Source of the DNA: Acidobacteriota bacterium
GTDB lineage: Bacteria > Acidobacteriota > UBA890 > WLXD01
DNA length: 64,000 bases
Reading direction: 5' to 3'
Assembly (NCBI GenBank): GCA_963666055.2
Contig: CAXWPH010000015.1
Coordinates: 288,001 to 352,000, forward strand
The position numbers and the translations under genes are program-made. Shown here in pieces: positions 1-45,755 of the stretch. Numbering within the stretch: the stretch's first letter is position 1; each line of letters begins with the position of its first letter. Under the pieces are notes generated by a model. It saw only the letters and a list, made by a program, of their open reading frames with translations, ran no database searches and was not told the DNA's origin.

Positions 1-288
1 CGGGCGCTCGGCCCGAATGAAGTCCGCCGCCTCGTCGACGTGCCGCGGTTGCGGATTGGGCGGCAGGCCGCCAAAGGTGCGGACGTTGCCCACCTCGCCC
101 AGCGCCTCGATCACCCGACCTAGTATTCCCTGGCGCTGCATGGCGCTGCCGCCGGTGAAGAGGCCGATTGTCGTTGCGGAGTCGGCGCCGGAATTCAACG
201 CGTCGACGCGGGCGGGAAGGTCGGCGAGCGCGCCGTCGCCGCAGATCACCCGGGTCCCGCGCCAGGTCCATTCCGCCGGCGAGGTCAT
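1..288 (-). CDS. Iron-containing (group III) alcohol dehydrogenase, N-terminal part; likely phosphonoacetaldehyde reductase (runs off window)
   Basis: Not in ORF track. Manual translation MTSPAEWTWRGTRVICGDGALADL...LFTGGSAM...FGGLPPNPQPRHVDEAADFIRAERP matches an Fe-ADH N-terminus (G.GAL, PNP); ATGA overlap with the ppd stop. Confidence 0.75.
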   Translation of the reverse strand, partial: MTSPAEWTWRGTRVICGDGALADLPARVDALNSGADSATTIGLFTGGSAMQRQGILGRVIEALGEVGNVRTFGGLPPNPQPRHVDEAADFIRAERP

Positions 289-1442
289 GCGCCGCTCCGC
301 GCCAGGTAGCGGCGCAGGCGCTCGGCTACCTCCGACGGATGCGTCGCCGGCCGTCCCAGCGGATGCACCGATCCCTCGAGGATGCGCACGTGCAGCAGGG
401 AAGGGCCCCGCCTCTCGAGGGCGGCACGAAGCTCGGTCTCCAGCCTCTCGCCGGTGACCAGGCTACGCGCGTAGCGGTAGCCCACCGAGCGCGCTACACC
501 GGTGAAATCGACGGTGTCCGAAAGCGTCTGTTGCCCACCGGTTGACTCGTGAGCGTTGTTGTCGAGGAGCACGTGCACCAGCCCTTCGGGACGATAGTGG
601 CCGACCGACACCATGGCCTCCAACCGCATCAGCGCTGCGCCGTCGCCGTCGATGACCACGGTCCGTAGCTCTGCCGCGCAGTGCCGAGCCAGCCCCAGGC
701 CAAGGGTGCTGGCGCAACCCATCGAGCCCACCATGTAGAGCTGATTCTCGGTGTCGCGCAGCGTGTAGAGCTCGCGCCCCGTCTTGCCGGTGGTAGCGAG
801 AATTGGGTGCGACTGCCCCACTACTTCAGCGATCCGCGCGATGCAGTCGTGGCGCCTCAGCTTCGGCTTTCCGGGTTCCGGCTCGATGCCAGCGTGATCC
901 CGCGGCGGTCGCGGCGCCCGGTTGGTGCTCTGCAGGTCATACGGTTCGATGGACCCCTTCTGCATGATCAACGCGAAAGATCGTCGCGCTTCTGCCAGGT
1001 AGCGCCGAGCGCGGCCCATCTGCGCGCTCAGCTCATCGAGGTCCTGGCAGAGCACCTCGGTTTCGAGCTCCATCGCCTCGAGCATCGTCCGTGTTGCCGT
1101 TCCCATGATCTCGTGCTGCGGTTCGTCGCCGATTCCCGGCTGCCCGCGCCAGGTGACCACCACCAGCAACGGGATCTGGAACGGCTGTGCCAGCGAGGTC
1201 AGCGGGTTGACGGCGTTGCCGAGGCCGGAGTTCTGGAACATCACCACCGGCTGCATGCCGGCGAGCTGGGCGCCGCACGCATAGGCGACCGCTTCGCCCT
1301 CGTTGTTGAGGGGGACGTAGGTGCCCGGCCGGTTGTCGATCAGGTAATTGACCACCGGCTTGAAGAGCGAGCACGGCACGCTGGTGTACAGGTCGAAACC
1401 CTGCGCTTCCATCTCGGCGACGAAGCCGGCCGCGGGTATCAC
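285..1442 (-). CDS. aepY: Phosphonopyruvate decarboxylase (ThDP-dependent)
   Basis: VPCS, NNEGEAVAYACG, QNSGLGNAVNPLTSL, DEPQH, TTGKTGREL, VGSMGCAS, DGDGAALM, NNAHESTGGQ motifs; GTG start at 1442 preferred over the ORF-track start. Confidence 0.9.
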   Translation of the reverse strand: MIPAAGFVAEMEAQGFDLYTSVPCSLFKPVVNYLIDNRPGTYVPLNNEGEAVAYACGAQLAGMQPVVMFQNSGLGNAVNPLTSLAQPFQIPLLVVVTWRGQPGIGDEPQHEIMGTATRTMLEAMELETEVLCQDLDELSAQMGRARRYLAEARRSFALIMQKGSIEPYDLQSTNRAPRPPRDHAGIEPEPGKPKLRRHDCIARIAEVVGQSHPILATTGKTGRELYTLRDTENQLYMVGSMGCASTLGLGLARHCAAELRTVVIDGDGAALMRLEAMVSVGHYRPEGLVHVLLDNNAHESTGGQQTLSDTVDFTGVARSVGYRYARSLVTGERLETELRAALERRGPSLLHVRILEGSVHPLGRPATHPSEVAERLRRYLARSGA

Positions 1443-1476
1443 CGGCGCCGGCTCGTTCCGGGAAGCGCGGCCGGCA

Positions 1477-1962
1477 TCAGAATTCCAGCGCGTCCGAGTA
1501 CTTCTCGATGTCGTCGATGTCGAGCCAGTTGCCGGCGATGTACGTGACCCGTACCTCGGCCCCCTCGGCAACCAGGTGGTTCAACAGCCGCGACATTCGC
1601 ATGGTTTCGAACCCTTCCGTCGAGCGCAGCTGCTCGAGAGCATGTCGCAGCGCGTTGGCACCGGTCTTCGTGAGCTTCATCAGGCCGATCGATTCACCGT
1701 CAGCGTTGTCCGGGTGGAGGTCCGGGTCCATCTTGTCCATCAAGACCGGCTCCTCGGTGTAGGCCGGCGTGTAGGGCCGCGATGCTTTGATGAACTCGGT
1801 GTATCGTGCTGGTGGCTCGGCAGCGGTGTTGGAGTCGACGACGATGACCACGTCGCCGGGCTCCCCCTGGAGCGCCTGCAGCACGTAGCGCTTGAAGATG
1901 ATGTCGCCGAACGAGATGTAGGTATCACCTCGGATATGCTCGGCGGCGCAGGCGAGCGAGGT
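1477..1962 (-). pseudogene. C-terminal NTP-transferase (LicC-like) domain of the type fused to PEP mutase; N-terminus missing, joined in-frame to asnB
   Basis: SLACAAEHIRGDTYISFGDIIF...IGLMKLT...WLDIDD directly upstream of ppd; no PepM EDKxxxxxNS motif in the window. Confidence 0.65.
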
Positions 1963-3648
1963 GTAGGCGGCGTCGACGCGTCCTCGGCGATCGGCTTCCA
2001 CGAGACGGCGAACCTCGTCGAACTCGAAAAGACCTCGCTGCGTCAGCGAACGTTTCGACAGCACCTCGCGGCGCAGCTCCACCAGATCGGAATGTAGCCA
2101 TTGGCGCAGGGGCGCCGCGAAGCCGCTCTTGGGCCGATAGATCACCTCTCGGGGTAGGTACGGCTCCATCGCCTTCTTGAACACGTGCTTTAGTGTGCCG
2201 CCGGCGATTTTCTGGTGGCTGGGGATCGCCGCCGCGAGGTCGACCACCTGCAGGTCCAGCAGCGGCACCCGCACCTCGACGCCGGCGTACATGCCGGTTT
2301 TATCGGTGTAGTTGAGGTTGTGGTCGGCGAGAAAGTGCTTGGCGTCGATATAGAGCATGCGCTCCAGCGGATCGGCGTCATTGCGCACACGGGCGAGCGA
2401 CTCGGCGAGCGGATGGGGAGGATCCTGGCGGTGGATCTCTGCCTGCACTGGAGGTGTCAGCAGAGCCCGCCGCCGCCATTCGGGCGTCCACTCCAGATAT
2501 GCGGCTATGCGCGCGTCGCCATCCAGGTTGGCGTGGGCGAACGTCTTCGCCAGTCGTCGCACGAGCGGCCGACGCATTCCGGGACCAGGAATAGCACCAC
2601 ACTGCAGGGCCCGGGAGGCGCCGGCGAGCGCGCCTCGTGCGGCGCGCGGCAGCCACGACCACAGCCGCTCCGAGCGTAGCGCCTGGTGACGCCGGTACCC
2701 GCCGAGGATGTCGTCGCCCCCCGCGCCGGACATCAGCACCTTCAATCCGTCTTTGGCGGCGCGCTCGCAGATCAACAGCGCGTTGATCGGCGCCGGGTCG
2801 GCCTGCGGCTCGTCCAGACACCAGAGCATGCGCTCGAGCTCGTTGATCATCTCGGGCCCGGCACGCACGATTTCCAGATCCACTCCTAGGTGGGCCGCCG
2901 CCTGGCGAGCGTAGGGCAGGTCGGCGGGGTTGCCCTCGATGCGGTCCGCCCCCTGAAAGTCCATCGTGTAGGCCACCGTGGGGCTGTTGGCGTCGGCACG
3001 GCGCATCATCGCGACGACGGCGCTCGAATCGAGGCCGCCCGACAGGAACGCTCCCACCGGAACGTCCGACAGCAGCTGCCGCCGGACGGCGGCTTCGACC
3101 TCCGACGCCAGCTGCGCTGCGACGCCGTTACCCTGAGCTACAGCGACGCGATGCCGGCGGCAGTCCTCGGCTTGCGGCAGTTCGTAGAAGATCCAGCTGC
3201 GCGTCACAGCACCACCGCGAAGCACGAGCGCCTCTCCAGGGCGCATCTTCTTGACCGTTCTCAGCGGCGTGCGAGGCGCCGGCGCCCACAGATAGGTCAG
3301 GTACTGGTCGATGGCGACCAGATCGAGGTCGCGGGGAACCTCCGAGCTCGCCAGGATCGCCTTGAGCTCGGAAGCGAACAGAACGCCGCCGCCGGCGTGC
3401 GCGAAGTAGAGCGGCTTGACGCCCAGGCCGTCCCGCGCCAGCAGCACGTCGCCGCTCTCGATGCCCTCACGCCGACCGCTGTGCCGGCCATCGTAGAGGG
3501 CGAGCGCGAAGATTCCGTTCAGCCGCTCGAGGAAGCCCGGGCCTTGTGTAGCGTACAGGTGCAGCAGCACCTCCGAATCGGATCGACTGGTGAAACGGTG
3601 GCCGTGCTCCTCGAGCTCGCGTCGGAGCGTCGGGAAGTTGTAGGTCTC
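1963..3648 (-). pseudogene. asnB: Asparagine synthetase (glutamine-hydrolysing) family amidotransferase, truncated at both ends
   Basis: ETYNF..SDSEVLL, ARDGLGVKPLY, FASELKA, FLSGGLDSS, SGAGGDD, EVRVPLLD, RPKSGF; lacks the N-terminal catalytic Cys and the last residues. Confidence 0.85.
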
Positions 3649-4934
3649 AGCTCTATCGATTCCTGGTGGGCCCGCTGTTCGTCGAGCGCGGCAAGCTCGT
3701 CTCGACGGAGCTCATCGGCGATCCGTCGATCCACCAGGACGGGCAGTGGGCTGCCGTCTTGCGACACGGCGCCATCCCGTTCGTGTCGTATCCATACGAG
3801 TGGCCGTTCGGCATGTTGCGCGATGCGGCACTTCTGCAGTTGGAGCTTGTGGCCGCCGCCCTCGACGAGAACATGACGCTCAAGGACGCCACCGCCTTCA
3901 ACGTGCAGTGGGATGGCTCGCAGCCAGTGTTCATCGACATTCCCTCGTTCGAGCCGCTCGATCCAGGCACCCCGTGGGTGGGCTACGAGCAGTTCTGTCA
4001 GATGTTCTTGTACCCGCTCATGCTGCAGGCGTACCGCGGCATTTCCTTTCATCAGCTACTGCGTGGTCGCCTCGATGGCATCGAGCCGTCGGACTGCTGG
4101 GGCATGCTCTCTCGGCGTGATCTTCTTCGCCCCGGGGTGCTGAAGCATGTGTTCCTGCAGTCGAAGGTGCAGGCGCGATTCCGGGACCGGGAGGGCGACA
4201 TCAAGGGCGAGCTGCGCGACGCTGGTTTCGGTGCCGAGATGATCAAGGCAAACATCCGGGGTCTGACCAAGGTCGTCGGCAAGCTCGATTGGACGCCCGC
4301 CGAGTCGGGGTGGGTGAACTACGGTCGCTGCACGCACTACGACGACCAGGCACGGCAGGCGAAGGGGACGTTCGTAGGCCAGGCGCTGGCCGCGCGCCAC
4401 TGGCCCATGGTTTGGGACCTGGGGTGCAATACCGGCAGGTATTCGCGTCTGGCTGCCGAGCACGCGGATCTGGTAGTGGCGATGGACGCCGATCACCAGT
4501 GTGTCGACCGACTTTACGAGAGCCAGCGCGGCGAAGGTTCGCGCCGCATCCTGCCGCTGGTGGCGAATGTCGCCGACCCCTCGCCCGCGCTCGGGTGGAG
4601 GGGGCTCGAGCGCAAGACGTTGGAGCAACGCGGCCGGCCCGATCTAGTCATTTGCCTGGCTCTGATTCATCATCTGGTGATCGGCGCAAACATCCATGTC
4701 GATGAGCTGGTGGGTTGGCTTGCCGACGTCGGCGCCGACCTGGTGATCGAGTTTGTTGAGAAGTCGGACCCGATGGTGCAGCGACTGCTACAGAACAAGG
4801 ACGACATCTACGACGATTACGACCGCGCCAACTTCGAGCGTGTGCTGGCGGCGTCGTTCGAGGTCGAGCGATCCGAGACCATCGCTGGGGGCACTCGGAA
4901 GCTGTTCTTCGCCCGCAATCGGGGTCGCAAATGA
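3648..4934 (+). CDS. NoeA-like class I SAM-dependent methyltransferase, probably 5'-truncated
   Basis: IPFVSYPYEW, LKDATAFNVQW, WDLGCNTG, LALIHHL; starts at a head-to-head junction with the asnB fragment. Confidence 0.75.
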   Translation, partial: QLYRFLVGPLFVERGKLVSTELIGDPSIHQDGQWAAVLRHGAIPFVSYPYEWPFGMLRDAALLQLELVAAALDENMTLKDATAFNVQWDGSQPVFIDIPSFEPLDPGTPWVGYEQFCQMFLYPLMLQAYRGISFHQLLRGRLDGIEPSDCWGMLSRRDLLRPGVLKHVFLQSKVQARFRDREGDIKGELRDAGFGAEMIKANIRGLTKVVGKLDWTPAESGWVNYGRCTHYDDQARQAKGTFVGQALAARHWPMVWDLGCNTGRYSRLAAEHADLVVAMDADHQCVDRLYESQRGEGSRRILPLVANVADPSPALGWRGLERKTLEQRGRPDLVICLALIHHLVIGANIHVDELVGWLADVGADLVIEFVEKSDPMVQRLLQNKDDIYDDYDRANFERVLAASFEVERSETIAGGTRKLFFARNRGRK

Positions 4935-7000
4935 GCCCGGCCGGCGTCTGGACCGAAGGTCAATCGACTGCATGGTCGCGGCGCGCGGTGGTCGTCGGGG
5001 CGGCCATGTTCACGCCCGGCGTGCTGTTCGTGCTGGTGTTCAATTCGATCCTGCTGGCCAACCTTGACGAGGTCGCGTACGACACCACTCTGGTGCTCAT
5101 ATTCTTCGGGCTGTTCGTAGGCACAACGACGGCGTGCGTGGCGATCTTCGCGGCAGGTCTGGGGTCGAAGAACTGGGCGCGGCTGGCCCGCGCCGTGGTT
5201 GCGGCCGGCGCCTTGGTGTTCGTGTTCGAGCTGCTGCGCCCGTTAACGGTAGCGGCGGCGGGCATCCGCGGAGCTTTCGGGATCGAGTTGGTCGCCGTGG
5301 TGGTGGTCGCGGCTCTGGTTCTCAAACCGAGCCTGCGTTCGATCTTCCTCGTTCTTGCGGTGGTCGCCCCCGTTCAGATTACGTCGGCCGTCTACCAACA
5401 CGTCACCACCGTCGCTGGCACGACCGCGTCGAGGCAGGCTCAGCGGGTCGCCCGGCTTCGGCTCGAGCCGGTAGGACTCATCTCTGATCCGCGTCCGGTA
5501 TTCCGTTGGCCCGAGTTCGGCGCCGGACACCGCTACGAGATCGAGGTCGTGGATGACGTTACCGGGGTTGCTGTGGTCCGGGAGGGCGTCGACGGTAATA
5601 GGCACCGGCTGGCCGCCGACTTGGAGGCAGGTCACCAGTACCGTTGGCGTTTCCGAACCCTGCCCAACGGCGAGCCAGACCGGTTTCGAGGCTGGGTGCG
5701 CTTCCGACTCAGCGACGCACGCCTCAGCCCGCATCCGGAGGGCGGGGAAGCTCTCGGCGCTTCGACTGCCCCCATGGATACTCCCAACGTCTATCTTGTC
5801 GTCCTCGATGCATACCAGTCGGAGAGCTACGAGTACCTGCGTGACACGCGGCCGGAGCTCACCGAGCTGCCGGTGACCTTCTTCCCGCAATTCCGGGTTA
5901 GCTCCGGCAAGACCTGGTCCTCGCTGACGGAGATGTTGCGTGGCGAGCACTATTTGCCCGACCATCAGATCGAGGAGTGGCGTGTTGCGGCGCCGGCAGA
6001 GGGTCTCCTGGGGGACCTGTTTCGCCATGGCGTGCAAGTGCATCAGTACCCGTACTATCGAAACGACTGCTACGAGTTCGCAGTGGCGTGCCGCGACACA
6101 GTGCGTTCCAAGAAGGAGTTTGCGGGTCGCTCGCATAGCATCGCCATCGTCGACCTGTGGTTTCTGAACACCATGCCAACGACCGTGCGCCGCACCATCC
6201 TCGGCGACGCTGCGGCCGCCGACGCAGCCAGCTGGGACTACGGCTTCTCGATCACCGATCTCCTGCTGGGCGAGACCGAGGGCCCGGCTGTCAGCCACAA
6301 CGCCTACTACTCGCTCAAGCAGTTCGAGCGTGTGCTCGACGAGGAGACACGTCGACCCGACAGCGGCCAGCTCGTATTCGCCCACATCATGCTGCCGCAT
6401 TCACCGTACGTCGTCGGCGCCGACTGCGAGTACCTCGGGCAGGTAGGGGAGGACGACGACGTCATTGACCGGCTGCTCGATCAGACAACTTGTGCCAACC
6501 ATCTACTCGGATCATTGTTTGATCGCCTCGAGGAGCTCGGGCGGCTCGATTCTTCGCTGGTGATGGTGATTTCCGACCACGGCACCTTCTGGCGCCCGAC
6601 CGACGACGAGCGCCTGCAGCCGTACCTGTCACTGGAGGCTACGATCCCGTTCCTCGACGTCGACGAGGTCGACAGCGCGACGTGGTCTTCCGACATGCTA
6701 GAGGTACGTTCTTCGGCCCTGATGCTGGTGAAATTTCCGCGCCAGCGCGAGTGGCAATCGTCGGCGCAGCCGGTGCAGATGATCGATGTGGCGCCCACGA
6801 TTGCGGCGCACTTCGGTGCCCCGGTGGAGCACTATGCCGGCCTGCCGATCGATCAGATCGGTCCGAACATGGAGCGCGAGACGCTGTTCTACGGCTTCAA
6901 TAAGATCCCGCGTGCTGGCGCGCCTGCGGTAATGTCGATTTATCGGCGAAACGGCGATGGTGACTGGCTGTACAGCCACGACATCGAGACGCTCCAATAG
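4931..7000 (+). CDS. Membrane-anchored sulfatase-like/alkaline-phosphatase-superfamily transferase
   Basis: N-terminal TM helices; NVYLVVLDAY, HIMLPHSPY, ISDHG, DVAPTI; ATGA overlap with the upstream gene. Confidence 0.7.
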   Translation: MSPAGVWTEGQSTAWSRRAVVVGAAMFTPGVLFVLVFNSILLANLDEVAYDTTLVLIFFGLFVGTTTACVAIFAAGLGSKNWARLARAVVAAGALVFVFELLRPLTVAAAGIRGAFGIELVAVVVVAALVLKPSLRSIFLVLAVVAPVQITSAVYQHVTTVAGTTASRQAQRVARLRLEPVGLISDPRPVFRWPEFGAGHRYEIEVVDDVTGVAVVREGVDGNRHRLAADLEAGHQYRWRFRTLPNGEPDRFRGWVRFRLSDARLSPHPEGGEALGASTAPMDTPNVYLVVLDAYQSESYEYLRDTRPELTELPVTFFPQFRVSSGKTWSSLTEMLRGEHYLPDHQIEEWRVAAPAEGLLGDLFRHGVQVHQYPYYRNDCYEFAVACRDTVRSKKEFAGRSHSIAIVDLWFLNTMPTTVRRTILGDAAAADAASWDYGFSITDLLLGETEGPAVSHNAYYSLKQFERVLDEETRRPDSGQLVFAHIMLPHSPYVVGADCEYLGQVGEDDDVIDRLLDQTTCANHLLGSLFDRLEELGRLDSSLVMVISDHGTFWRPTDDERLQPYLSLEATIPFLDVDEVDSATWSSDMLEVRSSALMLVKFPRQREWQSSAQPVQMIDVAPTIAAHFGAPVEHYAGLPIDQIGPNMERETLFYGFNKIPRAGAPAVMSIYRRNGDGDWLYSHDIETLQ

Positions 7001-7010
7001 CGAGCCCGCC

Positions 7011-8099
7011 GTGACGCAGCCGCTGCTCATCATCATTCTGGACGGGTGCGAGGCCGGCTACCTCGAACGGGCGAGTACCCCCCACCTGGATCGGCTGGCA
7101 TCTGGCGGCCAGCGCTTCGTCGCCAGCGCCGTCGTCCCCACGGTGACCAACGTCAACGTCACCTCGTTGCTCACCGGAGCCCCACCGTCGCAGCACGGGA
7201 TCACCGGCAACACCTATCTCCGCATCGATGACGGTGCCCTGGTTCCGATGAACGACCGGCGGCAGCTTCTGTGCTCCACCCTGTTCGCGCGCGCCCGCGC
7301 CGCAGGTGGGACGACGGCTTTCCTCTCCGCCAAGCGTAAGCTGCTGAGCTTGTTCGGGCCCGATCTCGACTTCGTCGGCTCGGTCGAGACACCCCCCGAT
7401 TGGGCTGTCGAGGCAATTGGCGAGCCTCCAGACATCTACCATCCGGACGCTAACCTCTGGCTCCTGAGGGCGGCCGCCTTGCTGCTCGAGCGCCGGTCGA
7501 TTGACCTGCTGGCGGTCTGCACCACGGATCTCGTGCCCCATCTACACCGACCAGAACATCCCGAGGCATGCGATCATTTCGAGCGCCTCGATGCGTTGAT
7601 CGGACGACTGAGCGAGCTCGCCCTGGATGCCGCGATGGTGATAACCGCCGACCACGGCATGCGCGACAAGCCGCGGATAGCCGACATTGGGCCCAGCCTC
7701 GAGACCTACGGTGCGCGCGTAGTGCCGGTAATCAAGGACCCCTACACGCTCCACCACGGCAACCTGGGTGGAGCCGCGTACGTCTACTTGGAGCAGCCCG
7801 AGCGAGCGCCCGAGGTCGCTACCGAGCTTTCAGCGGTCGAGGGTATCGAGCAGGTGTTGACGGCGGACGAGGCACACCGCGAGCTCGCGCTCGACCCGGA
7901 TCGGGTGGGTCATTTGGTGGTGCTAGGCGATGCGGATACCGTGCTTACATACGGGTCCCCGGAGCTGTCGGTGGACTCGCTCCGATCTCACGGTTCCGTT
8001 CACGAGCGTGCGGTCCCGGTGATCACCTCGAACCTGGAGCCGATCAGCGCGTCCCTCGCCTGGGAGGTCACCGCGACTGCTTTCGAGATGACGAGATAG
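7011..8099 (+). CDS. phnA: Phosphonoacetate hydrolase-like protein
   Basis: LDGC, PTVTNVN (Thr nucleophile), HGITGN, TTDLVPH, TADHGM, KDPYTLHHGNLG and LRSHG correspond to PhnA motifs. Confidence 0.75.
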   Translation: MTQPLLIIILDGCEAGYLERASTPHLDRLASGGQRFVASAVVPTVTNVNVTSLLTGAPPSQHGITGNTYLRIDDGALVPMNDRRQLLCSTLFARARAAGGTTAFLSAKRKLLSLFGPDLDFVGSVETPPDWAVEAIGEPPDIYHPDANLWLLRAAALLLERRSIDLLAVCTTDLVPHLHRPEHPEACDHFERLDALIGRLSELALDAAMVITADHGMRDKPRIADIGPSLETYGARVVPVIKDPYTLHHGNLGGAAYVYLEQPERAPEVATELSAVEGIEQVLTADEAHRELALDPDRVGHLVVLGDADTVLTYGSPELSVDSLRSHGSVHERAVPVITSNLEPISASLAWEVTATAFEMTR

Positions 8100-8206
8100 C
8101 CGATGCTACGATGCGATCTTGCGGTGTTTGACACCCGAGGGAGCGGCGGCGAGACTGCAGGCAGGCGCCCAACCCGCCGCGTGCTGAATCCCAGGAGGCC
8201 AAGCCG

Positions 8207-9550
8207 GTGAGTATTCCGAACGTGTCCCCGGAGCATGCCGGGCATCTGCTCAAGGACTGGAAAGAGGAGCTCAAGATCAGCAGCGCCGAGCTTGCCGAGG
8301 AGTCTGGTCTCGCCGAAGATACCGTGCGCGAGCTACTCGCAGGTGGCCGCGTCGGCACGTTTGATGAGTTGATCCAACTTGCCGGTGTTCTGAACCGCAG
8401 TTTGCGAGACCTGCTGCCCTACGAAGACGATCTCGTCGATGGCGTCAAAGTCCTGCGTCACGACAGTGCTCGTATGTTCCAGCAGGATCGCGGCGGCGGT
8501 TTGCAGTACACCTACTGGGCGCGCGCAACCTCGAGCGCGATTCCGGACTTCGTGCCGGTGGAGCTTGTCCTGCACATCAGCGACCCTGATCGGGTGGTGC
8601 CGAACCTGGGACACTTCTTCCACCAGTACACCGAGATCTTGGACGGTGGCCCGGTGACCGTGTTCTGGAAAGATACCGACGGTGAGACACACTCGTACAC
8701 CGGAACCGAGGGCGATACGTGGCTGATTCCTGGGTTCACCCCCCATTGGTTCACCTCACCCGACCCCGACAACCTCGGCAAGATCATCGCCTGCACGATC
8801 GGCCAGCACCTGACCGGCGATACACGGCAGGAGATCATCCTGTCTGGCGCCGAGAGATTCGCGGGGCGTTTCGAGAAGGGGTTGCAGGCTGGGTTGCTCG
8901 CTTCCCTGCGCCAGAACCGGCGCCTTTCACTGGCTGCGGCTGTGGGCCTGGCCGGCATCGAGACGGAACGCTTGACCGCGCTGGAGGCGGGGGAGGCGGA
9001 GCTCTCGGACGATGAGGTCGGCCGGCTGGCCCGTGCCTACAAAGTCAGCGAGCGCGACCTGATGCCGCAACACGATGACCTCGAGAACAAGCTGACGATC
9101 CTGCCTAAGGCCGAGGCGCATCACGAGCGCTTCGATTACGGGGAGCGCTACCAGCGTGTAGCGACGTCGCGGTTGCCCAACATCGTCGCCAGTGAGCTAC
9201 GGCTCAACGGCCAGGCCGATCCCGACTTCGTCGACTTCCCTGGACACACCTACCTCCAGGTATTGCGCGGACCCGACGTGGTCGTCGAGTGGACCGGTGA
9301 GGGTGGAGCGAATTCCGAAACCGCCGGCACCGGCGACACGTTCCTGATCTCGGCGTTCACGCCCTATCGTATCCGCCCGTCGGAGCCGGGGAGTCAGGGC
9401 CGCGTCCTGGAGCTCAGCATGGCCCAGCATCTTCTCAACGGCGATGCGTTGCGCGAGGCGGCGCTGGTCGGGTTCGACAACCTCGAGCGCCTGGTGAAGC
9501 CGATCTCGTACTACGCGCAGCGAGCTCCCGAGAGTGTCGAGGTCGAGTGA
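8207..9550 (+). CDS. Methylphosphonate synthase/HEP dioxygenase family non-heme Fe enzyme (tandem HTH-cupin repeats)
   Basis: Two HTH+cupin repeats in 447 aa; repeat 1 has NLGH136FFHQ140...I174PGFTPH180, repeat 2 lacks the metal ligands; RBS AGGAGG before the GTG. Confidence 0.8.
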   Translation: MSIPNVSPEHAGHLLKDWKEELKISSAELAEESGLAEDTVRELLAGGRVGTFDELIQLAGVLNRSLRDLLPYEDDLVDGVKVLRHDSARMFQQDRGGGLQYTYWARATSSAIPDFVPVELVLHISDPDRVVPNLGHFFHQYTEILDGGPVTVFWKDTDGETHSYTGTEGDTWLIPGFTPHWFTSPDPDNLGKIIACTIGQHLTGDTRQEIILSGAERFAGRFEKGLQAGLLASLRQNRRLSLAAAVGLAGIETERLTALEAGEAELSDDEVGRLARAYKVSERDLMPQHDDLENKLTILPKAEAHHERFDYGERYQRVATSRLPNIVASELRLNGQADPDFVDFPGHTYLQVLRGPDVVVEWTGEGGANSETAGTGDTFLISAFTPYRIRPSEPGSQGRVLELSMAQHLLNGDALREAALVGFDNLERLVKPISYYAQRAPESVEVE

Positions 9551-10311
9551 CGGGCATCATCGTCGGTGCCGGCCGAGGGGCCCGGCTCAAGCCGGCGACT
9601 AGCGAAGCCCCCAAGTGCCTCATGGATGGCCTGGGTGGACGTCGCTTGCTCGACTGGATACTTCAGGCGCTTCGCCAAGGTGGTGTCGACGACATCGTCT
9701 TCGTCGGTGGCTATCGGATGAAGATGGTACAGGCGCTGTATCCGGAGCTGCGCTACTACCGTAACGATCGCTGGCAAGACAACAACATTCTGGCCTCGCT
9801 GATGTACGCTGCGTCGGAGTTCGACACCGACGTGATGGTTTCCTATTCGGACATCGTCTATCGCGATTCGATCGTGCAACGTTTGCGCGAAACGTCGGGC
9901 GACGTGGCGTTGGCGGTGGATATCAACTGGCGCCAGTCGTACCTGGGGCGCGTTGGACACGCCGAGTCGGAGGCCGAGAACGTCACTCTCGAGGGCGGGC
10001 AGGTTCGGCGCGTCGGGAAGCACCTACACGCCGACGCTGCCGACGCTGAGTTCATCGGCCTGGCCTACTTCTGCGCCGCAGCGGCGCGCACCATGCGCGA
10101 TCGATACCAGGAGCTCGAGGCTGGCCAGCCCGGGCCCTTTCAGCAGGCCGAGATGCTCGAGAACGCCTACCTAACCGACATGCTGCAGGAGCTCATCGAC
10201 ATGGGGCTCGACGTCAGGATGGCTGCGGTAGACGGCCCCTGGTTCGAGCTTGATACTCCGCATGACTTGGAACGAGCCCGACAATCCCTCACGCCGCTCA
10301 AGCGCGAATGA
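9547..10311 (+). CDS. Phosphocholine/phosphonate cytidylyltransferase (LicC/PntC-like NTP transferase)
   Basis: GAGRGARL...PKCL, NNILASL, YSDIVY, AEFIGL, WFELDT; GTGA-coupled to the MPnS-like gene. Confidence 0.8.
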   Translation: MTGIIVGAGRGARLKPATSEAPKCLMDGLGGRRLLDWILQALRQGGVDDIVFVGGYRMKMVQALYPELRYYRNDRWQDNNILASLMYAASEFDTDVMVSYSDIVYRDSIVQRLRETSGDVALAVDINWRQSYLGRVGHAESEAENVTLEGGQVRRVGKHLHADAADAEFIGLAYFCAAAARTMRDRYQELEAGQPGPFQQAEMLENAYLTDMLQELIDMGLDVRMAAVDGPWFELDTPHDLERARQSLTPLKRE

Positions 10312-11987
10312 TCGGCGGGCTGAGCAGCGCGGCGATCACCGATATCGCCAGGATCACCAACCAAAGAGCACTCGATCGAGCCGAGAGAATCGCCGGGTAG
10401 ACACCCTCCAAGTCGATCCCTCTGGAGCCCTCGCGTTCGTCCTCTCCGGCCCAGTGAACCAGGAACAGGGCGAACCAGAAGACCACCTGGTACTCCACGA
10501 AGATCAGGAACGGGCCCCAGAGCAGAGCGAAGAACGACATCAGCGACGCCGTACCGGCCCCCAGGTACACGCCCAGCTTCATCGGGTGCAACGCACGCCC
10601 GAGCGGCCTGAGCAGAATTCGTCCGATCGCCAAACCCAGCACAAGCAACACTGCTACGCCGACAGTTCCCATCTCGGCGAACACCTGGAGATAGAAGTTG
10701 TGCGGCATGTCGAACCAGCGGTTCTCTGCTCCCGACAGCTGGTAGTAGTTGAGCAACTCCCAGGTGAACGATCCAAATCCGATTCCGGCGATCGGGTAGT
10801 CACGACCCATACGCAGAGCTTCCCGGGCCAGCACGTCGCGCCCCCCCCGCGAGGATCTCCTCCATCTGAGGAACCGTCACCAGCGCACGCACATAGCGCA
10901 TCAGCTCTGTCCCAGGCATCAACCACGTCGCGATGCCCAGCGTAATGACCACGCCGATCACGGTCACGGCGGCGAAGCGGAGCCAGAGATCGCGATCCGT
11001 CTCACCCCGCAGCGCACGCCCGGCAACCCAGCCCGCTCCCACCATGAACGGCGACAGCAGCATCGAGCCTTGCATGAGGCGCGACTCCAGGGGAATCGTA
11101 ATCAACGCCGTGAGCACCAACGCCGCGATCGAGACGGCTCGCAACAACCGGTAGCGCGAGAACACCGCCACAGCCAAGGCCAGCGGTATCAGCAACGCGA
11201 TCGTGCCGCCGAACACTGTAGCGTCCGTCATCAGCCCGGAAGGCCAACCGTTAGCCAGTGGAAGTCCGTGCTCGGGGGCATACGTCTGCACCAACGCCAA
11301 CGCCAGGCTCAGGCAGGCACCGGCAAGGAGGGCCGCGATTGCCTCGCCGATCGACCAACGGTCCGTCTCGGAGTCGACGTCGGCGTCGCCGTGGCCCGAC
11401 CTACCGACTCGCCTGGCCGCCAACGCGACGAATAGCAGCGGGCCCAGCAGCAGGTTCATGCTCGCGAACACGAACGACATGACGGTGGCGTACGAGGTGT
11501 GGACCCGGGTGAACTGTGCCAACGGCCCTGCAGCCAACAGTCGGGCGATCGTCGGGCTGTAGCGAGCGCCGGCAATGAGCCCCGAGACGACGGCCAGCGA
11601 TGCGAACACCAGCATCGCCCACAACAGCAGGCGGTCTAAGCCTGCCGCAAACTGCCAGATTCGGCGACGCTCGCGAAGCATGAGGCCTGCCAACGCAGCG
11701 TAGATGAGATACAGGTGCAGGATGGCGTCGTAGCCGAGCAGCGTCTTCAAGGGAATGGGCAAGACCGGTGCGAGAAAGAGCACCCCGAGCATGGCGATCC
11801 GCGGCCGGTAGTAGCCCAGCAGCGCGGACGCCGCGACAGCGCCGGCGGTCACAACCTGCAGCCAGCCGGCGCCTCGCGTCACGTAGAACGGGTAGCCGAG
11901 CCCAGTGAGTGTGAACCCGAGCGCCAGGAAAAGGATCCCGCCCAGCGGGAGATTGCGTTGCCGCAACAGCTCGTGGTCGAGGTTCAT
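10298..11987 (-). pseudogene. O-antigen ligase/Wzy_C family membrane protein, +1 frameshift at a C8 tract (10841-10848)
   Basis: Multi-TM protein; RDYPIAGIGFGSF and MPHNFYLQVFAEMGTVG in the second frame; C7 would restore one ORF. Confidence 0.7.
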
Positions 11988-12622
11988 GAAGGTCGCATCG
12001 CCGGTGCGCGGCTGACGTGGGGGTTTCCGCGTACGGAGAATCGCAGAGGCTCGTGTTGCCACTGTTGCGCGTAGCCGACACCGACGCGTGGCCCGATGGC
12101 AATCGCCGCCGCTCGCAGCAGACGATCGCGCCGTCGCTCGATGCACAGCGGCCCGGGCATGGTCAGGTCGACCCCGTCGAGCCGGCGGGTGATGCCGAGC
12201 GCTTGGCACAGCTTGGCAGGTCCGGAGCAAAGGTCGGTATCGTCACGGGCCCGCTGGCGGCGCGCGCGCATTTCGTTCATGCCCTCTTCCGGCTGCAGCG
12301 CTCGAATCAGCACGGCGATGGGCTCGCCAACTCGCCCGGCCACCGCGTTCACGCAATGGTGCATGCCGTAGACGAAGTAGACGTAGGCGTGGCCGCCATC
12401 GCCCCACATGCTCTCGTTGCGGGCGCTCCGCCGCCCCCCGTAGGTGTGCGCCGCCTTGTCCTGAACCCCGAGATAAGCCTCGGTCTCGACGATCACCCCC
12501 GACGTTCGTACCCCTCCGACGGCGCTTACGAGCCGCTGTCCGAGCAGGGCGCGCGCCAGCGTCGCCGCGTCGCGCCGAAAGAAGCGTTGTGACAGGTGCG
12601 CCGCTAAAGATCGTGTCGTCAT
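11984..12622 (-). CDS. DNA-3-methyladenine glycosylase (MPG/AAG family)
   Basis: IVETEAYLG, YVYFVYGMHHCVN, AVLIRAL, SGPAKLCQALGI, RVGV. Confidence 0.92.
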   Translation of the reverse strand: MTTRSLAAHLSQRFFRRDAATLARALLGQRLVSAVGGVRTSGVIVETEAYLGVQDKAAHTYGGRRSARNESMWGDGGHAYVYFVYGMHHCVNAVAGRVGEPIAVLIRALQPEEGMNEMRARRQRARDDTDLCSGPAKLCQALGITRRLDGVDLTMPGPLCIERRRDRLLRAAAIAIGPRVGVGYAQQWQHEPLRFSVRGNPHVSRAPAMRPS

Positions 12623-22177: not shown

Positions 22178-23578
22178 GATGAGTCCCGGTGAGGTAGTGG
22201 CGGGCTAACTACGTGACTACGGTCGCGACGTTCTGTTCCTGTGCGATGATCGCCGCTCCAACGTCCCCGCGCCCGCAAACCGGTGGGCAACCGGGTGACC
22301 AGGAGCTGCTGGAGAGAACGATTGTCGAGACACGAGCTCGGTAGCCATCTCAACGCGACTCCAGCAGGTAGCGAAGCTGGTGCGGATTCGGGAGGCGATC
22401 CAGATCACGGTGCAGGAGGAGCTGGCCGAGGCGTTGGGATGCGAGGCGTACGAGCGCAGCCACGAGCGCCGAGGGTATCGCAACGGCACCCAACGGCGGC
22501 GGGTGACGACGGCCAACGGGCTCCAGGAGTTGGACGTGCCTCGGGGGCGGCTGATCGACGAGGACGGCAATAGCCGGGAGTTCCGCAGCGCGATTCTGCC
22601 GCGCTACGCGCGCAGGACGCTGGAGGTCGACGAGGCGATCCTGGGCGCGTACTTGGCTGGGGCGAACACTCGGCGGATTCGCAAGGCGCTCTCGCCGCTG
22701 CTCGGTGAGGCGCATCTGTCCAAGAGCGCGATCTCTCGGGTGGTGGGCCGCTTGAAGGTGCAGTTCCAGCGATGGTGCGAGCGCGATCTGTCCGAGCAGC
22801 GGTTCAAGATCGCCTACCTGGACGGTTTCCACGTGAAGGTTCGCCCGGCGCGTCGGGTGGTGTCGGTGCCGGTGCTGGCCGCGATGGGAGTGGCGGAAGA
22901 TGGCCGTAAGGTCTTGCTGGCGTTGCGTTTGGCAGCCAGCGAGGCGGGTGTGCACTGGAAAGCGTTCATTGAGGATCTCAAGGACCGTGGGCTGTCTGCC
23001 CCGGAGCTCATCATCGCGGACGGCCACAAGGGGCTCGCCAAGGCGACGGAACTGTGGCCAGAGTCTCAAGTACAGCGCTGCACCCAGGACAAGTGGTAGA
23101 ACCTGGTGGCTCACTGCCCGGCACACGCACGCGCCGAGCACAAGCGGGACTGGGATCGGATCATCTATGCTGCCGATGGCAACGAAGCGCGGGGCGCCTA
23201 TCGGGACTTGCAGCGCAAATGGTCGATTCTCGTGCCGGCGGTGGCTCGCAGCCTCGAGGAAGCGGGGCTGCAGTTGCTGACCTTCTACGAGTTCCCCAAG
23301 TCGATGTGGAAGTCGCAGTGCTCCACCAACGCGCTGGAGAACCTGAACCGCGAGTTCCGTCGTCGCACCAAAACCCAGGGATCGTTCAGTACCGAGGCCG
23401 CGGCCGTCACGTTGCTCTGGGGTCTGATCGCCTTCGGGCAGATCCAGCCCCGGCGCATCGTCGGTTACAAGGACCTTCCCGCCATCACCACCCAGCCGGA
23501 CCAGGCAGCAGCGTAGGAGGTAGGATCAACGGCTAACTCGGAGAGCGTCACGAAAGTCCACAGCTAACGGGACACATC
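22178..23578 (+). mobile_element. IS256 family element; transposase (22380-23516) interrupted by an in-frame TAG at 23097
   Basis: YERS..R.GYRNG, VPR, YLDG, IADG, STNALENLNREFRRRT; imperfect IRs GATGAGTCCCG/CGGGACACATC. Confidence 0.8.
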
Positions 23579-38516: not shown

Positions 38517-39381
38517 CTAGGCAACCAGATCCTTGTACTCAAGCGGCTCGGTGTTCACGATGCGGGCCAGGGTGTCGCGGAAGATGTACGGGTTGTCGCG
38601 GTTGTTGAACCGCCACTCCAGCTGTTCGAGGTAGCGGTCCATGTGCTTGACCCTCATCTTGTGGAAGGTGCCCACGATGGAGCGCTTGAACAGCGACCAC
38701 ACACCCTCGATGTTGTTGGTGTGCACGTCTCCGACGACCCACTCCTCGGCCGAGTGGTTTACCGTCTCGTGGCGCGTGTCGTCGTCTCCGACGCCGATGT
38801 AGGAGGCGAGGTCGTCGGTGTAGATGGCCTCGGCCTTGTCGGCCACGGACCGATCGATGAAGTCGTGCAGCGTATGCTTGCGAACGTCGGGGATGCGCTC
38901 GATGGTGCCGGCGATCCAGTGCTTGTTGTCGCGCCAGTTGGGGCCACGTCGCTTGCCGCCGACCATCGTCTCGTCAACCTCGACGACGCTGACGAGAGTC
39001 GGGCCTGTGAGCGGGTCGTTGCCCATAGCCTCGCGGATGCGGTGGCACAGGTGCCAGGCGGTCTGGTAGGCGACGCCGAGGGAGCGCTTGAGCTGGTGGG
39101 CGCTCATGCCCTTCTTGGACTCGCACATCAGGTAGATGGCGAGGAACCATTTGCGCAGCGGAAGGTGGGAGCGGTGCATGATGGTTCCGGCCGTCACGGA
39201 AAACTGGTAGTCGCAGGACCTGCACATCCACTGTCCTCGTCCTCGGACTGGGTCGACGGAGGTGTCGCCGCATCGAATGCAGCAAACGCCGTCGGGCCAG
39301 CGAAGATCTTCCAGGGCCTCGCGGCATGATTCGTCGTCGTTGTAACTGTCCATCAGCGAAACAAAGGTTGATCTTTGTCAT
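38517..39381 (-). mobile_element. IS1595 family transposase (frameshift near start, probable short internal deletion)
   Basis: Zn ribbon RWPDG..C..C...C..C; EVDET, YTD, VNHS, HTNNIEG.WS.FKR, RFNNR; no IRs found. Confidence 0.85.
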
Positions 39382-43611: not shown

Positions 43612-44495
43612 TGGGCCTCCCCCGATTTCCCGGACACCTTTGGAAGCCCGATAATGGGCTCGGAGGTGAAGCATGGGGTCACGACGGCGGTACAGTCGCG
43701 AGTTCAAGATTGAGGCAGTGAGGATGGTGACGCAGCTGGGCCATCCGGTGTCTGAGGTGGCCCGGGATCTGGGTGTTGGCCGCGGCATGTTGACCAAGTG
43801 GCGCAAACAGCTCCAGGAGCAGGGGGTCACGGCGTTTCCGGGCGCGGGGAAGATGCCCGACCAGGACCTGGACGGGCAACAGCTACGGCGGGACCTGCGG
43901 CGAGTACGGCAGGAGCGCGACATTCTAAAAAAAGCGTTGGCGATCTTCTCGGAACGCCCGCGATGAAGTACCCGATCATCAAGCAACTGTCCGGCAAGTT
44001 CCCGGTGCGGCGGTTGTGCAAGATGCTCGAGGTGTCTCACGGCGGTTACTACGAGTGGCGAGGAAGGGGGCCGAGCCCGAGAGCGCGAGAAGATCGCCGT
44101 CTACGTGTGCAGATCAGAGCTGCATTCCGAGAGAGCCGCGACCGTTACGGAAGTCCGCGCATCCACAAGCAACTTCGGCAACGAGGGATCCGCTGCTCTC
44201 GCAAGCGGGTAGCTCGGCTGATGCGCCAGGAAGGACTTCGAGCTCGCCAACCCCGTCGGTTCCGGGTGACAACACGGCCCACACCTGGGCGGTCAGCGGC
44301 GCCCAACGTGCTGGCACGGCGCTTCACGGTGGATGCCGTGGACAGCGTCTGGGTGGGCGACCTGACATACCTGTGGACGCAGGAAGGATGGCTATACCTG
44401 GCCGTGCTGATGGATCTGTGCTCGCGACGGATCATCGGCTGGGCGGTGAGCGAGACGATGACGGACGATTTGACGCTGGCGGTCCTGGATCAGGC
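43612..44495 (+). mobile_element. IS3 family element copy A, truncated (orfA 43673-43966; partial orfB from 43963)
   Basis: IRL TGGGCCTCCCCCGATTTCCCGGACAC; RRYSREFKIEAV; YGSPRI; WVGDLTY, DLCSRRIIGW. Confidence 0.85.
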
Positions 44496-45755
44496 TGACC
44501 TGACCCCACGGTTAGTACCACGTCTTATCTCAGTAACTCGGTGCTGACAAGGGGTTGTTGAGGCCGGCGAAGCGGAGCGTAGCCGGCTTCAACAACAGCG
44601 CCTCCGGGGCCGGTGGTCGGTAGCCCAACGAGCTGTGCGGTCGCATGCGGTTGTACTGCTGCCTCCATCTCTCGATCAGAACCTTTGCCTCCTTGAGCGT
44701 GTAGAAGATCTCGCCGTTGAGCAGCTCGTCTCGGAGCTTGCCGTTGAAGCTCTCCACGTAGCCGTTCTCCCACGGCGAGCCCGGCTCGATGAACAGCGTG
44801 CCCACACCGAGCCTACCGAGCCAGTCGCGAACCGCCTCGGCGGTGAACTCCGGTCCGTTATCGGACCGGATGTGCTCAGGTATGCCCCGGTGCACGAACA
44901 ACCACCCGAGCCGCTCGAGCACGTCCTCACAGTTGAGCTTCCGTGCCACGTCGATCGCCAGGCTTTCTCGTGTGTACTCATCGACGATCGTCAGCAGCCT
45001 CATAGCCCGACCCTCGTGCGTCCGGTGATGGACGAAGTCATACGCCCAGACGTGATCTTTGCGCTGTGGTCGCAGCCGGATGCACGAGCCATCGCTGAGC
45101 CACAGCCGGGCTCGTTTGGGCTGCTTTGTCGGTACTTTCAGCCCCTCACGCCTCCAGATACGCTGCACTCGTTTGTGGTTCACCCACCAGCCCTCCATAC
45201 GCAACAACGCCGTCACTCGCCGATACCCGTAGCGCCCGTATTGTCGGGCTAGATCCACGATCCGCTCCGTCAACATCTGCTCATCGCCCGGTTCTGTTGG
45301 CATGTACCTGTGTGTCGTGCGTGGTTGTTTCAGTACCCGGCACGCCCGCCTCTCGGAGACGCCCAGCCGCCCCCGTACATGCGCCACCGCCTCGCGCCGT
45401 CGAGCTGGGCTCAGAAGTTTCCCTCCGCGACTTCCTTCAGGATCGACAGGTCGAACTCTTTCTCCGCCACCAGTTTCTTGAGCCGGGCGTTTTCTTTCTC
45501 CAGCTGCTTGAGCCTTCTGGCCTGGTTGACCTTCAGCCCCCCGTACTCCCGCCGCCACCGATAGTAGGTGTGCTCGGTGATCGCTAGCTTGCGGCAGGCA
45601 TCCTTGACCGTCCCGCCTTGCGCCAGCTCCACTTCAGCCTCCCGGAGCTTGCGCACGATCTGCTCGGCGCTGTGCCTCTTCGTCGGCATTCTGACCTCCC
45701 CTTTTCGACCCAGATCGTGAGATTACCTCTGGATCCGTTTTGGGGGGTCAGGTCA
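44496..45755 (-). mobile_element. IS3 family (IS407-group) element, apparently intact (orfA 45411-45689; orfB to 44530)
   Basis: IRs TGACCTGACCCC at both ends; GGC on both flanks (possible 3-bp TSD); GGGAAAC frameshift window; [21 protein letters not shown]. Confidence 0.9.

What the first reader, a model, noticed from the sequence alone, without database searches (positions are those of the whole stretch)
8207..9550. Divergent methylphosphonate synthase (MPnS)-like enzyme in a probable Acidobacterium
Seen: 447 aa with two HTH-cupin repeats. Repeat 1 has K23, R95, Y101, Y103, N133, H136-x3-Q140 and I174-x5-H180; repeat 2 has lost the metal ligands. Established: HppE/HEPD/MPnS enzymes share this fold; MPnS and class II HEPD use a 2-His-1-Gln iron site; Ile six residues before the last His is associated with MPnS and Gly with class II HEPD. 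As I recall the Nitrosopumilus MPnS (GHFMHQ...YITPFTPH...LTGD..QE; C-terminal GD..RE...VG..N..R), both repeats align, but the second diagnostic residue (Phe162) is Val152 and the N-terminal HTH looks HppE-like. Inference: either a methylphosphonate producer in an unexpected lineage (relevant to aerobic methane) or a new product outcome in this family. Automated annotation would probably call it an XRE regulator.
Basis: partly seen in the sequence, partly recalled or inferred. Interest (0 to 1): 0.88.

Follow-up and report, generated by a model that had tools for sequence, protein, structure and literature searches.

The report
Re-duplicated phosphonate oxygenase paired with hydrolase
This gene, labelled a transcription regulator in databases, is a doubled copy of an unstudied half-size relative of methylphosphonate synthase that likely oxidises 2-hydroxyethylphosphonate, most likely to the methane precursor methylphosphonate, yet it sits beside a predicted phosphonoacetate hydrolase, which hints at a different product.

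Summary
The 447-aa ORF and all ten named residues are real. The predicted fold matches MPnS and class II HEPD (TM 0.86-0.87). It is not a divergent member of their clade. Both repeats group with a family of single-repeat 231-255-aa His/Gln/His proteins (99/98 support), and placement of repeat 1 among MPnS/HEPD-II is rejected (p-AU 1e-4). So it looks like a separate tandem duplication. The half-size relatives sit in cytidylyltransferase-enzyme-pepM operons (pepM next door in 20 of 28 loci), which points to 2-HEP as substrate; this scan noted that family three times before. Ile174 is not MPnS-specific, because Psf4 HppE has it too. Odds for the product: methylphosphonate 0.42, phosphonoacetate feeding PhnA 0.25, HMP 0.13. 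De novo methylphosphonate production by this strain is unlikely.

The parts
8207..9550 (+). Two-repeat HTH-cupin protein, predicted non-heme Fe(II) phosphonate oxygenase (447 aa)
8207..8869 (+). Repeat 1 (about residues 1-221), with H136/Q140/H180 and K23, R95, Y101, Y103, N133, T142, T197; V152/I174 at the MPnS F162/I184 columns; 51% identical to half-size proteins
8870..9550 (+). Repeat 2 (about residues 222-447), ligands lost; 33-36% identical to half-size proteins, 24-27% to canonical C-repeats
7011..8099 (+). PhnA-like phosphonoacetate hydrolase homologue (362 aa from the GTG at 7011). Keeps D11, T46, K108/K110, D173, H177, D214, H215, H327; TIGR02335 209 bits, below the 408 cut-off
9547..10311 (+). 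PF12804 nucleotidyltransferase (PntC/LicC-like); its start overlaps the enzyme's stop by 4 bases; 52% identical to the congener's copy
4931..7000 (+). Membrane-anchored sulfatase-fold protein, candidate transferase onto surface glycan (inferred); orthologue in congener G018 lies directly next to the nucleotidyltransferase
10301..12230 (-). O-antigen-ligase-like gene, split by a one-base difference at 10841 that contigs of 3 of 4 runs lack (probably an assembly error)
285..1571 (-). Phosphonopyruvate decarboxylase (Ppd), TIGR03297 398 bits over the 312.5 cut-off (true start probably downstream of 1571)
1477..1960 (-). Remnant of pepM: only the last 160 aa of the fused cytidylyltransferase domain; the mutase domain is deleted (1,272 bp missing relative to G018)
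1961..3648 (-). asnB-type amidotransferase fragment, truncated at both ends and fused in frame to the pepM remnant
1..288 (-). 5' part of a PhpC-like Fe-alcohol dehydrogenase (continues to G000:C15:287023); best family TIGR03405, 239.5 bits, below cut-off

Best explanation
The gene is a tandem duplication of a half-size His/Gln/His HTH-cupin enzyme with only the first copy keeping its metal ligands, and it likely binds Fe(II) and uses O2 to cut 2-hydroxyethylphosphonate (2-HEP) to methylphosphonate, which the overlapping nucleotidyltransferase would activate for surface-glycan decoration. Shown: sequence, fold model, residue conservation, tree position, gene order and the pepM deletion. Inferred: metal binding; a dimer in which K23 completes the partner's site (by analogy with MPnS/HEPD, recalled); the substrate (from the operons of the half-size relatives and from T142/T197); and the product (Ile at the I184 column plus a residue that cannot hydrogen-bond at the F162 column, a rule recalled from Born et al. 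2017). Because the PepM mutase is deleted in this strain, 2-HEP would have to come from salvage, for example imported 2-AEP through the genome's PhnW and the PhpC-like reductase. The PhnA-like neighbour would clear phosphonoacetate formed as a side product.
For: Foldseek best hits are MPnS 6b9s/6b9t (TM 0.86-0.87) and SaHEPD 6b9r (0.86), ahead of PhpD (0.70-0.76). K23, R95, Y103, N133, H136 and H180 are invariant in a 99-sequence alignment. T142 and T197 match canonical MPnS/HEPD-II (91 and 94 of 95) and not the 3 HppE-like rows. The Tyr-Gly motif diagnostic of class II HEPD (PMC8976061, passage) is absent. Half-size relatives have pepM directly downstream in 20 of 28 loci and a nucleotidyltransferase upstream in 24 of 28, often followed by ppd and Fe-ADH. 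The gene overlaps a PF12804 gene, a family shown to activate phosphonates with CTP (PMC6697681, passages). Ppd and the Fe-ADH lie 7-8 kb away. G000 has PhnW over cut-off. Some half-size loci also lack pepM next door (L023, L025), so pepM-less arrangements recur.
Against: The Val/Ile pair occurs in 0 of 95 canonical proteins (F/I 66, Y/G 19) but does occur in Psf4 HppE. The barrel is repacked (I144 and W172 where canonical proteins mostly have Phe and a smaller residue), so the two-residue rule may not transfer. Repeat 1 is rejected from the MPnS/HEPD-II clade (p-AU 1.3e-4). The genome has no PepM, and its glycan locus looks decayed (asnB cut at both ends). Methylphosphonate synthesis does not explain why a PhnA-like gene accompanies this form and none of the half-size forms. 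Congener G018 has the same nucleotidyltransferase and sulfatase-fold genes without the enzyme, so the overlap may be secondary.
Confidence: 0.42

Rival explanations
1. Catabolic two-gene cassette. The enzyme would oxidise 2-HEP (or phosphonoacetaldehyde) with O2 to phosphonoacetate without breaking the C-C bond (2-HEP + O2 = phosphonoacetate + H2O, the same four-electron balance as the MPnS and HEPD reactions). The PhnA-like neighbour would then release acetate and phosphate.
For: PhnA-like homologues (73-76% identical) have longest contigs of 662162, 44888, 333459, 28578 and 6174 bp. These are the same lengths as for 5 of the 6 non-self records of the enzyme's cluster, covering three species-level groups including G000. 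PhnA is in 0 of 28 half-size loci and 0 of 10 of their host MAGs (positive control). The hydrolase keeps the nucleophile, the metal ligands and the Lys-x-Lys pair of PhnA (roles recalled). G000 has PhnW but no PhnX, no PhnJ and no PhnY over cut-off (best 398 of 636). The pair is present where pepM is deleted (G000) and absent where pepM is intact (G018). Known HEP catabolism runs through dehydrogenases to PhnX or PhnY-PhnA (PMC13576164, abstract and passages). An Fe oxygenase that makes phosphonoacetate has precedent in FzmG (PMC8942020, passage). V152 is specific to this lineage.
Against: P0158 and P0003 (2.3 and 2.5 kb contigs) have no matched partner. No phosphonate transporter was seen beside the pair. 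The enzyme is coupled to a biosynthetic nucleotidyltransferase, and 107 bp separate it from phnA. Ten aldehyde-dehydrogenase hits in G000 could supply PhnA without this enzyme. PhnA also occurs as an orphan in other genomes of the phylum (L062, L063, L065). The host MAGs tested are incomplete (1.7-5.3 Mb). No member of this superfamily is known to me to make phosphonoacetate as its main product.
Confidence: 0.25
2. HEPD-type outcome: 2-HEP + O2 would give hydroxymethylphosphonate (HMP) + formate, with HMP activated for glycan decoration.
For: SaHEPD is as good a structural match as MPnS (TM 0.86). 20 of 26 half-size relatives have Tyr at the F162 column, as class II HEPD does. Lockwood et al. 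note hepD neighbourhoods with cell-surface genes (PMC9381506, passage).
Against: It lacks both residues of the Tyr-Gly class II motif. No HMP-processing dehydrogenase pair was seen in the locus.
Confidence: 0.13
3. A different substrate or reaction, for example an HppE-like oxidation or epoxidation of a larger hydroxyalkylphosphonate admitted by the Val152 pocket, or action on a CMP-linked phosphonate.
For: Val/Ile match Psf4 HppE. The half-size parent folds closest to HppE (TM by target 0.80). A methyltransferase-like gene lies at 3666-4934 (weak Pfam hits).
Against: Gln rather than Glu as ligand. T142 and T197 are of the MPnS/HEPD-II type. HppE-like rows form their own clade (100/100). No B12 radical-SAM methyltransferase was seen next to the gene.
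Confidence: 0.15
4. A phosphonate-sensing XRE regulator or dead enzyme, as the automatic annotation implies.
For: Only HTH families are hit in Pfam and NCBIfam. The locus is decaying in this strain.
Against: Every catalytic residue is invariant in the 9 two-repeat and 26 half-size rows. Repeat 1 is more conserved than repeat 2 against P0003 (74% versus 57%). HppE, HEPD and MPnS carry the same HTH domain.
Confidence: 0.05

Closest known systems
Methylphosphonate synthase MPnS, Nitrosopumilus maritimus (PDB 6B9S/6B9T)
   Same: Two HTH-cupin repeats with only the first armed; His-x3-Gln...His; K/R/Y/Y/N/T substrate residues; Ile at the 184 column; TM 0.86-0.87.
   Different: 23-24% identical. The repeats come from a separate duplication. 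Val instead of Phe162. No intact pepM in the genome. A PhnA-like gene is next door.
Class II HEPD, Streptomyces albus (PDB 6B9R)
   Same: Same fold and His/Gln/His triad; TM 0.86.
   Different: Lacks the Tyr-Gly motif (Val/Ile instead); separate clade.
HppE / Psf4 epoxidases (PDB 1ZZ6-9, 5U55)
   Same: Single HTH-cupin unit like the parent family; K23 equivalent; Psf4 has Val/Ile at the two columns.
   Different: HppE has His/Glu/His and Asn197, is 190-198 aa and lacks the C-terminal helical tail; separate clade.
Class I HEPD PhpD (PDB 3G7D)
   Same: Two-repeat architecture; TM 0.70-0.76.
   Different: Weak sequence match (profile E 4e-6); different third ligand (Glu176, recalled).
Half-size His/Gln/His proteins of Omnitrophota, Nitrospinia and other MAGs
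   Same: 51% identical to repeat 1 and 33-36% to repeat 2; one clade with both repeats (99/98).
   Different: Single repeat; Tyr or Phe at column 152; beside pepM in 20 of 28 loci; never beside phnA.
Phosphonoacetate hydrolase PhnA (PDB 1EI6, 3SZY), for the neighbour
   Same: E 6e-48 and 2e-45 over the full length; nucleophile and metal ligands kept.
   Different: About 45 aa shorter; below the TIGR02335 cut-off; no phnY beside it.

Membership tests
HppE/HEPD/MPnS non-heme iron superfamily | HTH + cupin unit with matching fold | tested here: met
HppE/HEPD/MPnS non-heme iron superfamily | Phosphonate-binding Lys, Arg, Tyr, Asn and two His ligands | tested here: met
   K23, R95, Y103, N133, H136, H180 invariant in 99 rows
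HppE/HEPD/MPnS non-heme iron superfamily | Fe(II) binding and O2/H2O2-dependent turnover | not testable with these tools
MPnS | 2-His-1-Gln triad | tested here: met
   H136, Q140, H180 align with H148, Q152, H190
MPnS | Ile184 (rule recalled; Born 2017 not held) | tested here: met
   I174; also present in Psf4 HppE, so not specific
MPnS | Phe162 (rule recalled) | tested here: not met
   V152; V/I in 0 of 95 canonical rows
MPnS | Descent from the canonical two-repeat MPnS/HEPD-II clade | tested here: not met
   p-AU 1.3e-4 for repeat 1; 0.033 and 0.036 for repeat 2
MPnS | pepM-ppd-reductase supply of 2-HEP in the genome | tested here: not met
   ppd and Fe-ADH present, pepM mutase deleted
MPnS | Methylphosphonate as product | not testable with these tools
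   31P NMR assay needed
Class II HEPD | Tyr-Gly motif (PMC8976061) | tested here: not met
   V152/I174
HppE | 2-His-1-Glu, single unit of about 190-200 aa | tested here: not met
   Gln140; 447 aa; separate clade
XRE-cupin regulators | Grouping with regulators, no phosphonate-binding set | tested here: not met
   regulators match only the HTH; fold hits are the enzymes
PhnA (neighbour) | TIGR02335 cut-off | tested here: not met
   208.7 of 407.55 bits
PhnA (neighbour) | Thr nucleophile, two-metal ligands, Lys-x-Lys (roles recalled) | tested here: met
Acidobacteriota (host) | Expanded ADOP permease family with PadR | tested here: inconclusive
   36 loci over cut-off of 70 matches, 0 of 14 controls over cut-off; suggestive only, no marker-gene placement; one search gave no taxon names

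The most novel reading that the evidence does not exclude
After duplicating, a half-size phosphonate oxygenase swapped its second-sphere aromatic for Val and was recruited from biosynthesis to catabolism. It would oxidise 2-HEP with O2 straight to phosphonoacetate for the adjacent PhnA. That would be a fourth product for the HppE/HEPD/MPnS fold and a two-enzyme, NAD-free, methane-free route for mineralising 2-HEP in a marine bacterium that has lost pepM.
Probability: 0.25. Interest if true: 0.88.

Novelty: new variant of a known kind. Interest (0 to 1): 0.63.

Why it matters
How one iron site steers the same 2-HEP intermediate to methylphosphonate or to HMP is an open mechanistic question resting on very few enzymes. 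This lineage supplies natural variants (Tyr/Ile, Phe/Ile, Val/Ile) on a different scaffold and in both single and doubled form, so one 31P NMR panel tests the two-residue rule directly. It also indicates that the two-repeat, one-active-site design arose more than once from HppE-sized parents. If the product is methylphosphonate, surveys that need 60% identity to mpnS (PMC9381506, passage) would probably miss this group. If the product is phosphonoacetate, it is a new reaction and a new route of phosphonate breakdown.

Tried and rejected
Simple divergent MPnS: rejected by trees and AU tests. Ile174 as proof of MPnS: rejected. pepM loss as an assembly error: contigs of X1, X2 and X3 cross the junction without change, though these runs may include the source sample. 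pepM elsewhere in the genome: none by PF13714, TIGR02320 or motif (95.7% complete). An intact copy of this strain's pepM in the protein collection: best match to the remnant is 83%. Phage-borne copies: 0 of 26 pattern matches confirmed. Other copies in the class: only G000 of 26, the 5 other hits being HTH-only. The one extra phylum hit, G400, is a regulator-like HTH protein beside an acyl-CoA synthetase-like gene (my reading). Promoter/terminator scan: uninformative (0 promoters, 4 terminators versus 3.7 expected). No RNA holder was listed. Laying marine runs at 80% likeness gave only short, about 98% identical pieces; one bridges phnA-like and the enzyme (X11, 8054-8413). Taxon names through ribosomal-protein clusters: none returned. 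The complex prediction, VIA alignment and ESM Atlas were unavailable, so oligomer state and site geometry are untested. Born 2017, Metcalf 2012, Cooke 2012 and Kim 2011 were not held, so their residue assignments are recalled, and the Born 2017 supplement could already list such sequences.

Full report
Observation. Among solved structures the sequence matches MPnS (E 3.9e-31), class II HEPD (8.2e-26), HppE (1e-10) and Psf4 (2.5e-8). An AlphaFold model built on 99 sequences (pLDDT 91.2, pTM 0.86) superposes best on MPnS and SaHEPD (TM 0.86-0.87), then on PhpD (0.70-0.76). Repeat 2 has lost the metal and substrate residues. Pfam and NCBIfam see only HTH domains, and JGI calls its homologues XRE regulators.

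Relatives. Only 2 full-length close homologues were found among 7,992 scored candidates (90% and 64%). All are single-repeat proteins, 231-255 aa where complete, with the same His-x3-Gln motif. Record titles name Omnitrophota (4), Planctomycetia (3), Nitrospinia, Actinomycetota and Gammaproteobacteria (1 each) and 2 unnamed bacteria. The profile search of 1.84 billion representatives gave 276 hits at E<=0.001. The best non-self hit is a 241-aa protein (1.4e-66), well ahead of the about 450-aa proteins (1.8e-39 and weaker). Repeat 1 is 51% identical to the half-size proteins and 29-34% to canonical ones; repeat 2 is 33-36% and 24-27% respectively.

Tree. I cut two-repeat proteins into repeats. 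The quick tree used 68 rows: the two repeats of 25 of the 102 long proteins (query and P0003 included), 11 of 25 locus proteins, 4 other singles and 3 HppE-like rows. The careful mixture-model tree dropped 26 of these rows, long branches and rows thinned for run time. In both trees the query's two repeats join the half-size clade (98; 99/98), while canonical N-repeats (100/100) and C-repeats (97/90) form their own clades. AU tests reject repeat 1 among canonical N-repeats (p 1.3e-4) and, more weakly, repeat 2 among canonical C-repeats (0.036; 0.033 with the Gln-less group). The characterised enzymes themselves were not in the tree: P0011 carries the MPnS motif seen and P0006/P0019 resemble SaHEPD. 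The tests were run after the trees were seen, and repeat 2 is a long branch. The simplest reading is an independent tandem duplication with decay of the second site.

Active site. Of 95 canonical N-repeats, 66 have Phe/Ile and 19 Tyr/Gly at the MPnS 162/184 columns; none has Val/Ile. The 26 half-size rows have Tyr/Ile (20) or Phe/Ile (6). All 9 rows of the query group (four distinct lineages) have Val/Ile. The Tyr-Gly motif is called diagnostic of class II HEPD in PMC8976061 (passage); the Phe/Ile rule for MPnS is recalled, since Born 2017 was not held. Psf4 HppE also has Val and Ile there, so Ile174 alone proves nothing. T142 and T197 agree with MPnS/HEPD-II rather than HppE. I144 and W172 differ from the canonical set, which weakens any transfer of the rule.

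Context of the parents. In 28 half-size loci, pepM follows directly in 20, a nucleotidyltransferase precedes in 24, and phnA is seen in 0; several loci are too short to show neighbours. Family scans confirm PEP mutase, Ppd and Fe-ADH. These genes make 2-HEP, the MPnS substrate (PMC12619172, passages), and PF12804 enzymes activate phosphonates with CTP for surface tailoring (PMC6697681, passages). So 2-HEP is the inferred substrate of the family.

Context here. The gene order is sulfatase-fold membrane gene, phnA-like gene (7011-8099), the enzyme, and an overlapping nucleotidyltransferase. On the other strand lie an asnB fragment fused to a pepM remnant, ppd and an Fe-ADH. The genome (95.7% complete) has no PEP mutase domain. 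Congener G018 has the intact asnB-pepM-ppd-ADH run; G000 lacks 1,272 bp at window 1960/1961. Contigs from three runs of two studies cross that junction unchanged, possibly including the source sample. In G018 the sulfatase-fold gene abuts the nucleotidyltransferase, with neither phnA-like gene nor enzyme between them. Both genes occur in 1 of 26 genomes of the class. In a 401-genome sample of the phylum the enzyme occurs only in G000 and PhnA homologues in 8. The host is probably Acidobacteriota: 36 of 70 ADOP matches pass the cut-off, against none in 14 controls. Near-identical short pieces occur in marine and sediment metagenomes.

The PhnA partner. It matches PhnA structures over its full length (E 6e-48) and keeps the nucleophile, metal ligands and Lys-x-Lys (roles recalled), but scores 209 of 408 on TIGR02335. 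Its closest homologues (76% and 73%) have longest contigs of the same five lengths as 5 of the 6 non-self enzyme records. The sixth record and P0003 lie on 2.3-2.5 kb contigs without a match. This is indirect evidence and reflects one origin across three species-level groups. Ten host MAGs of half-size genes have no PhnA (the search rings in G000 and G254), but they are incomplete. G000 has PhnW but no PhnX, PhnJ or over-cut-off PhnY.

Mechanism. I commit to MPnS-like chemistry at 0.42: Fe(II) on H136/Q140/H180, O2, C-C cleavage of 2-HEP to methylphosphonate, and activation by the overlapping transferase, with substrate from salvage in this strain. The strongest rival (0.25) keeps the C-C bond and yields phosphonoacetate for PhnA. 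It has the same atom balance as the two known 2-HEP reactions and explains the partner gene, the Val and the coexistence with a deleted pepM, but it has no precedent in this fold that I know. Published HEP catabolism uses dehydrogenases (PMC13576164, abstract and passages); FzmG is an unrelated Fe oxygenase that makes phosphonoacetate (PMC8942020, passage). HMP (0.13), another substrate (0.15) and a regulator (0.05) follow.

Novelty. Eight literature searches listed no paper on single-repeat His/Gln/His enzymes or on an MPnS-like gene paired with phnA. I read passages, not whole texts, of PMC9381506, bioRxiv 2020.11.04.368217, PMC12619172, PMC13576164, PMC8942020, PMC8976061, bioRxiv 2022.10.21.513280 and PMC6697681. 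The library lacks the key Science and JACS papers and their supplements. This scan has reported the half-size family three times on other DNA, after I had found it here; it had no record of this sequence or of the phnA pairing. Verdict: a new variant of a known kind, directly testable, interest 0.63.

Noticed in passing
proteins P0005, P0009, P0010, P0022: A third two-repeat group (448-450 aa) with all phosphonate-binding residues and both His but Gly/Ala/Ser in place of the Gln ligand, Gly/Ala at the 162/184 columns and a Gln two residues earlier. It forms its own clades and may be a 2-His-only site.
   Followed up: partly
proteins P0025, P0042, P0065, P0078: Further single-repeat His/Gln/His proteins outside the main half-size clade, all with the Phe/Ile MPnS-type pair; P0042 is named from Ca. 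Omnitrophota.
   Followed up: partly
L011:765-1661, L014:7801-8646, L015:1511-2356, L023:10743-11591: In Nitrospinia-like loci a 282-299-aa gene lies with the half-size enzyme and the Fe-ADH where pepM-ppd normally sit; no Pfam hit for L011 and L014 and no NCBIfam hit for L023.
   Followed up: no
L021, L024, L028 and L025: Half-size operons with pepM and Fe-ADH but no adjacent ppd (L021, L024, L028), or with neither pepM nor ppd (L025).
   Followed up: no
L001:8829-9968, L008:1633-2760, L018, L022, L024, L028: The nucleotidyltransferase upstream of the half-size gene is often fused to an N-terminal XRE HTH domain (Pfam for L001 and L008; the others read from sequence).
   Followed up: no
G000:C7:65914-68493: phnW-like gene followed by a frameshifted membrane protein, with no phnX, whereas congener G017 has a phnX-MFS-phnW arrangement (phnX read from a recalled motif).
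   Followed up: partly
L064 (G254:C10:137000-151000): phnA - aldehyde dehydrogenase - Zn-alcohol dehydrogenase - MFS, which looks like the PbfG-type HEP catabolic cluster of PMC13576164 (labels from sequence reading).
   Followed up: no
L069, L070 (haloarchaeal plasmids): Short PhnA-like genes sit with tcuA, an MmgE/PrpD gene and an isocitrate-lyase/PEP-mutase-family gene, suggesting breakdown of a phosphono-polycarboxylate.
   Followed up: no
window 3648-3715: A second rearrangement point: the asnB 5' end is lost and a methyltransferase-like ORF (3666-4934) begins on the other strand; the congener has a long polysaccharide cluster here.
   Followed up: partly
window 50448-54350: cas1, cas4 and cas3-like ORFs of a CRISPR-Cas locus, and several IS transposases at 22380-23516, 38517-39353 and 43798-45558 (read from sequence).
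   Followed up: no
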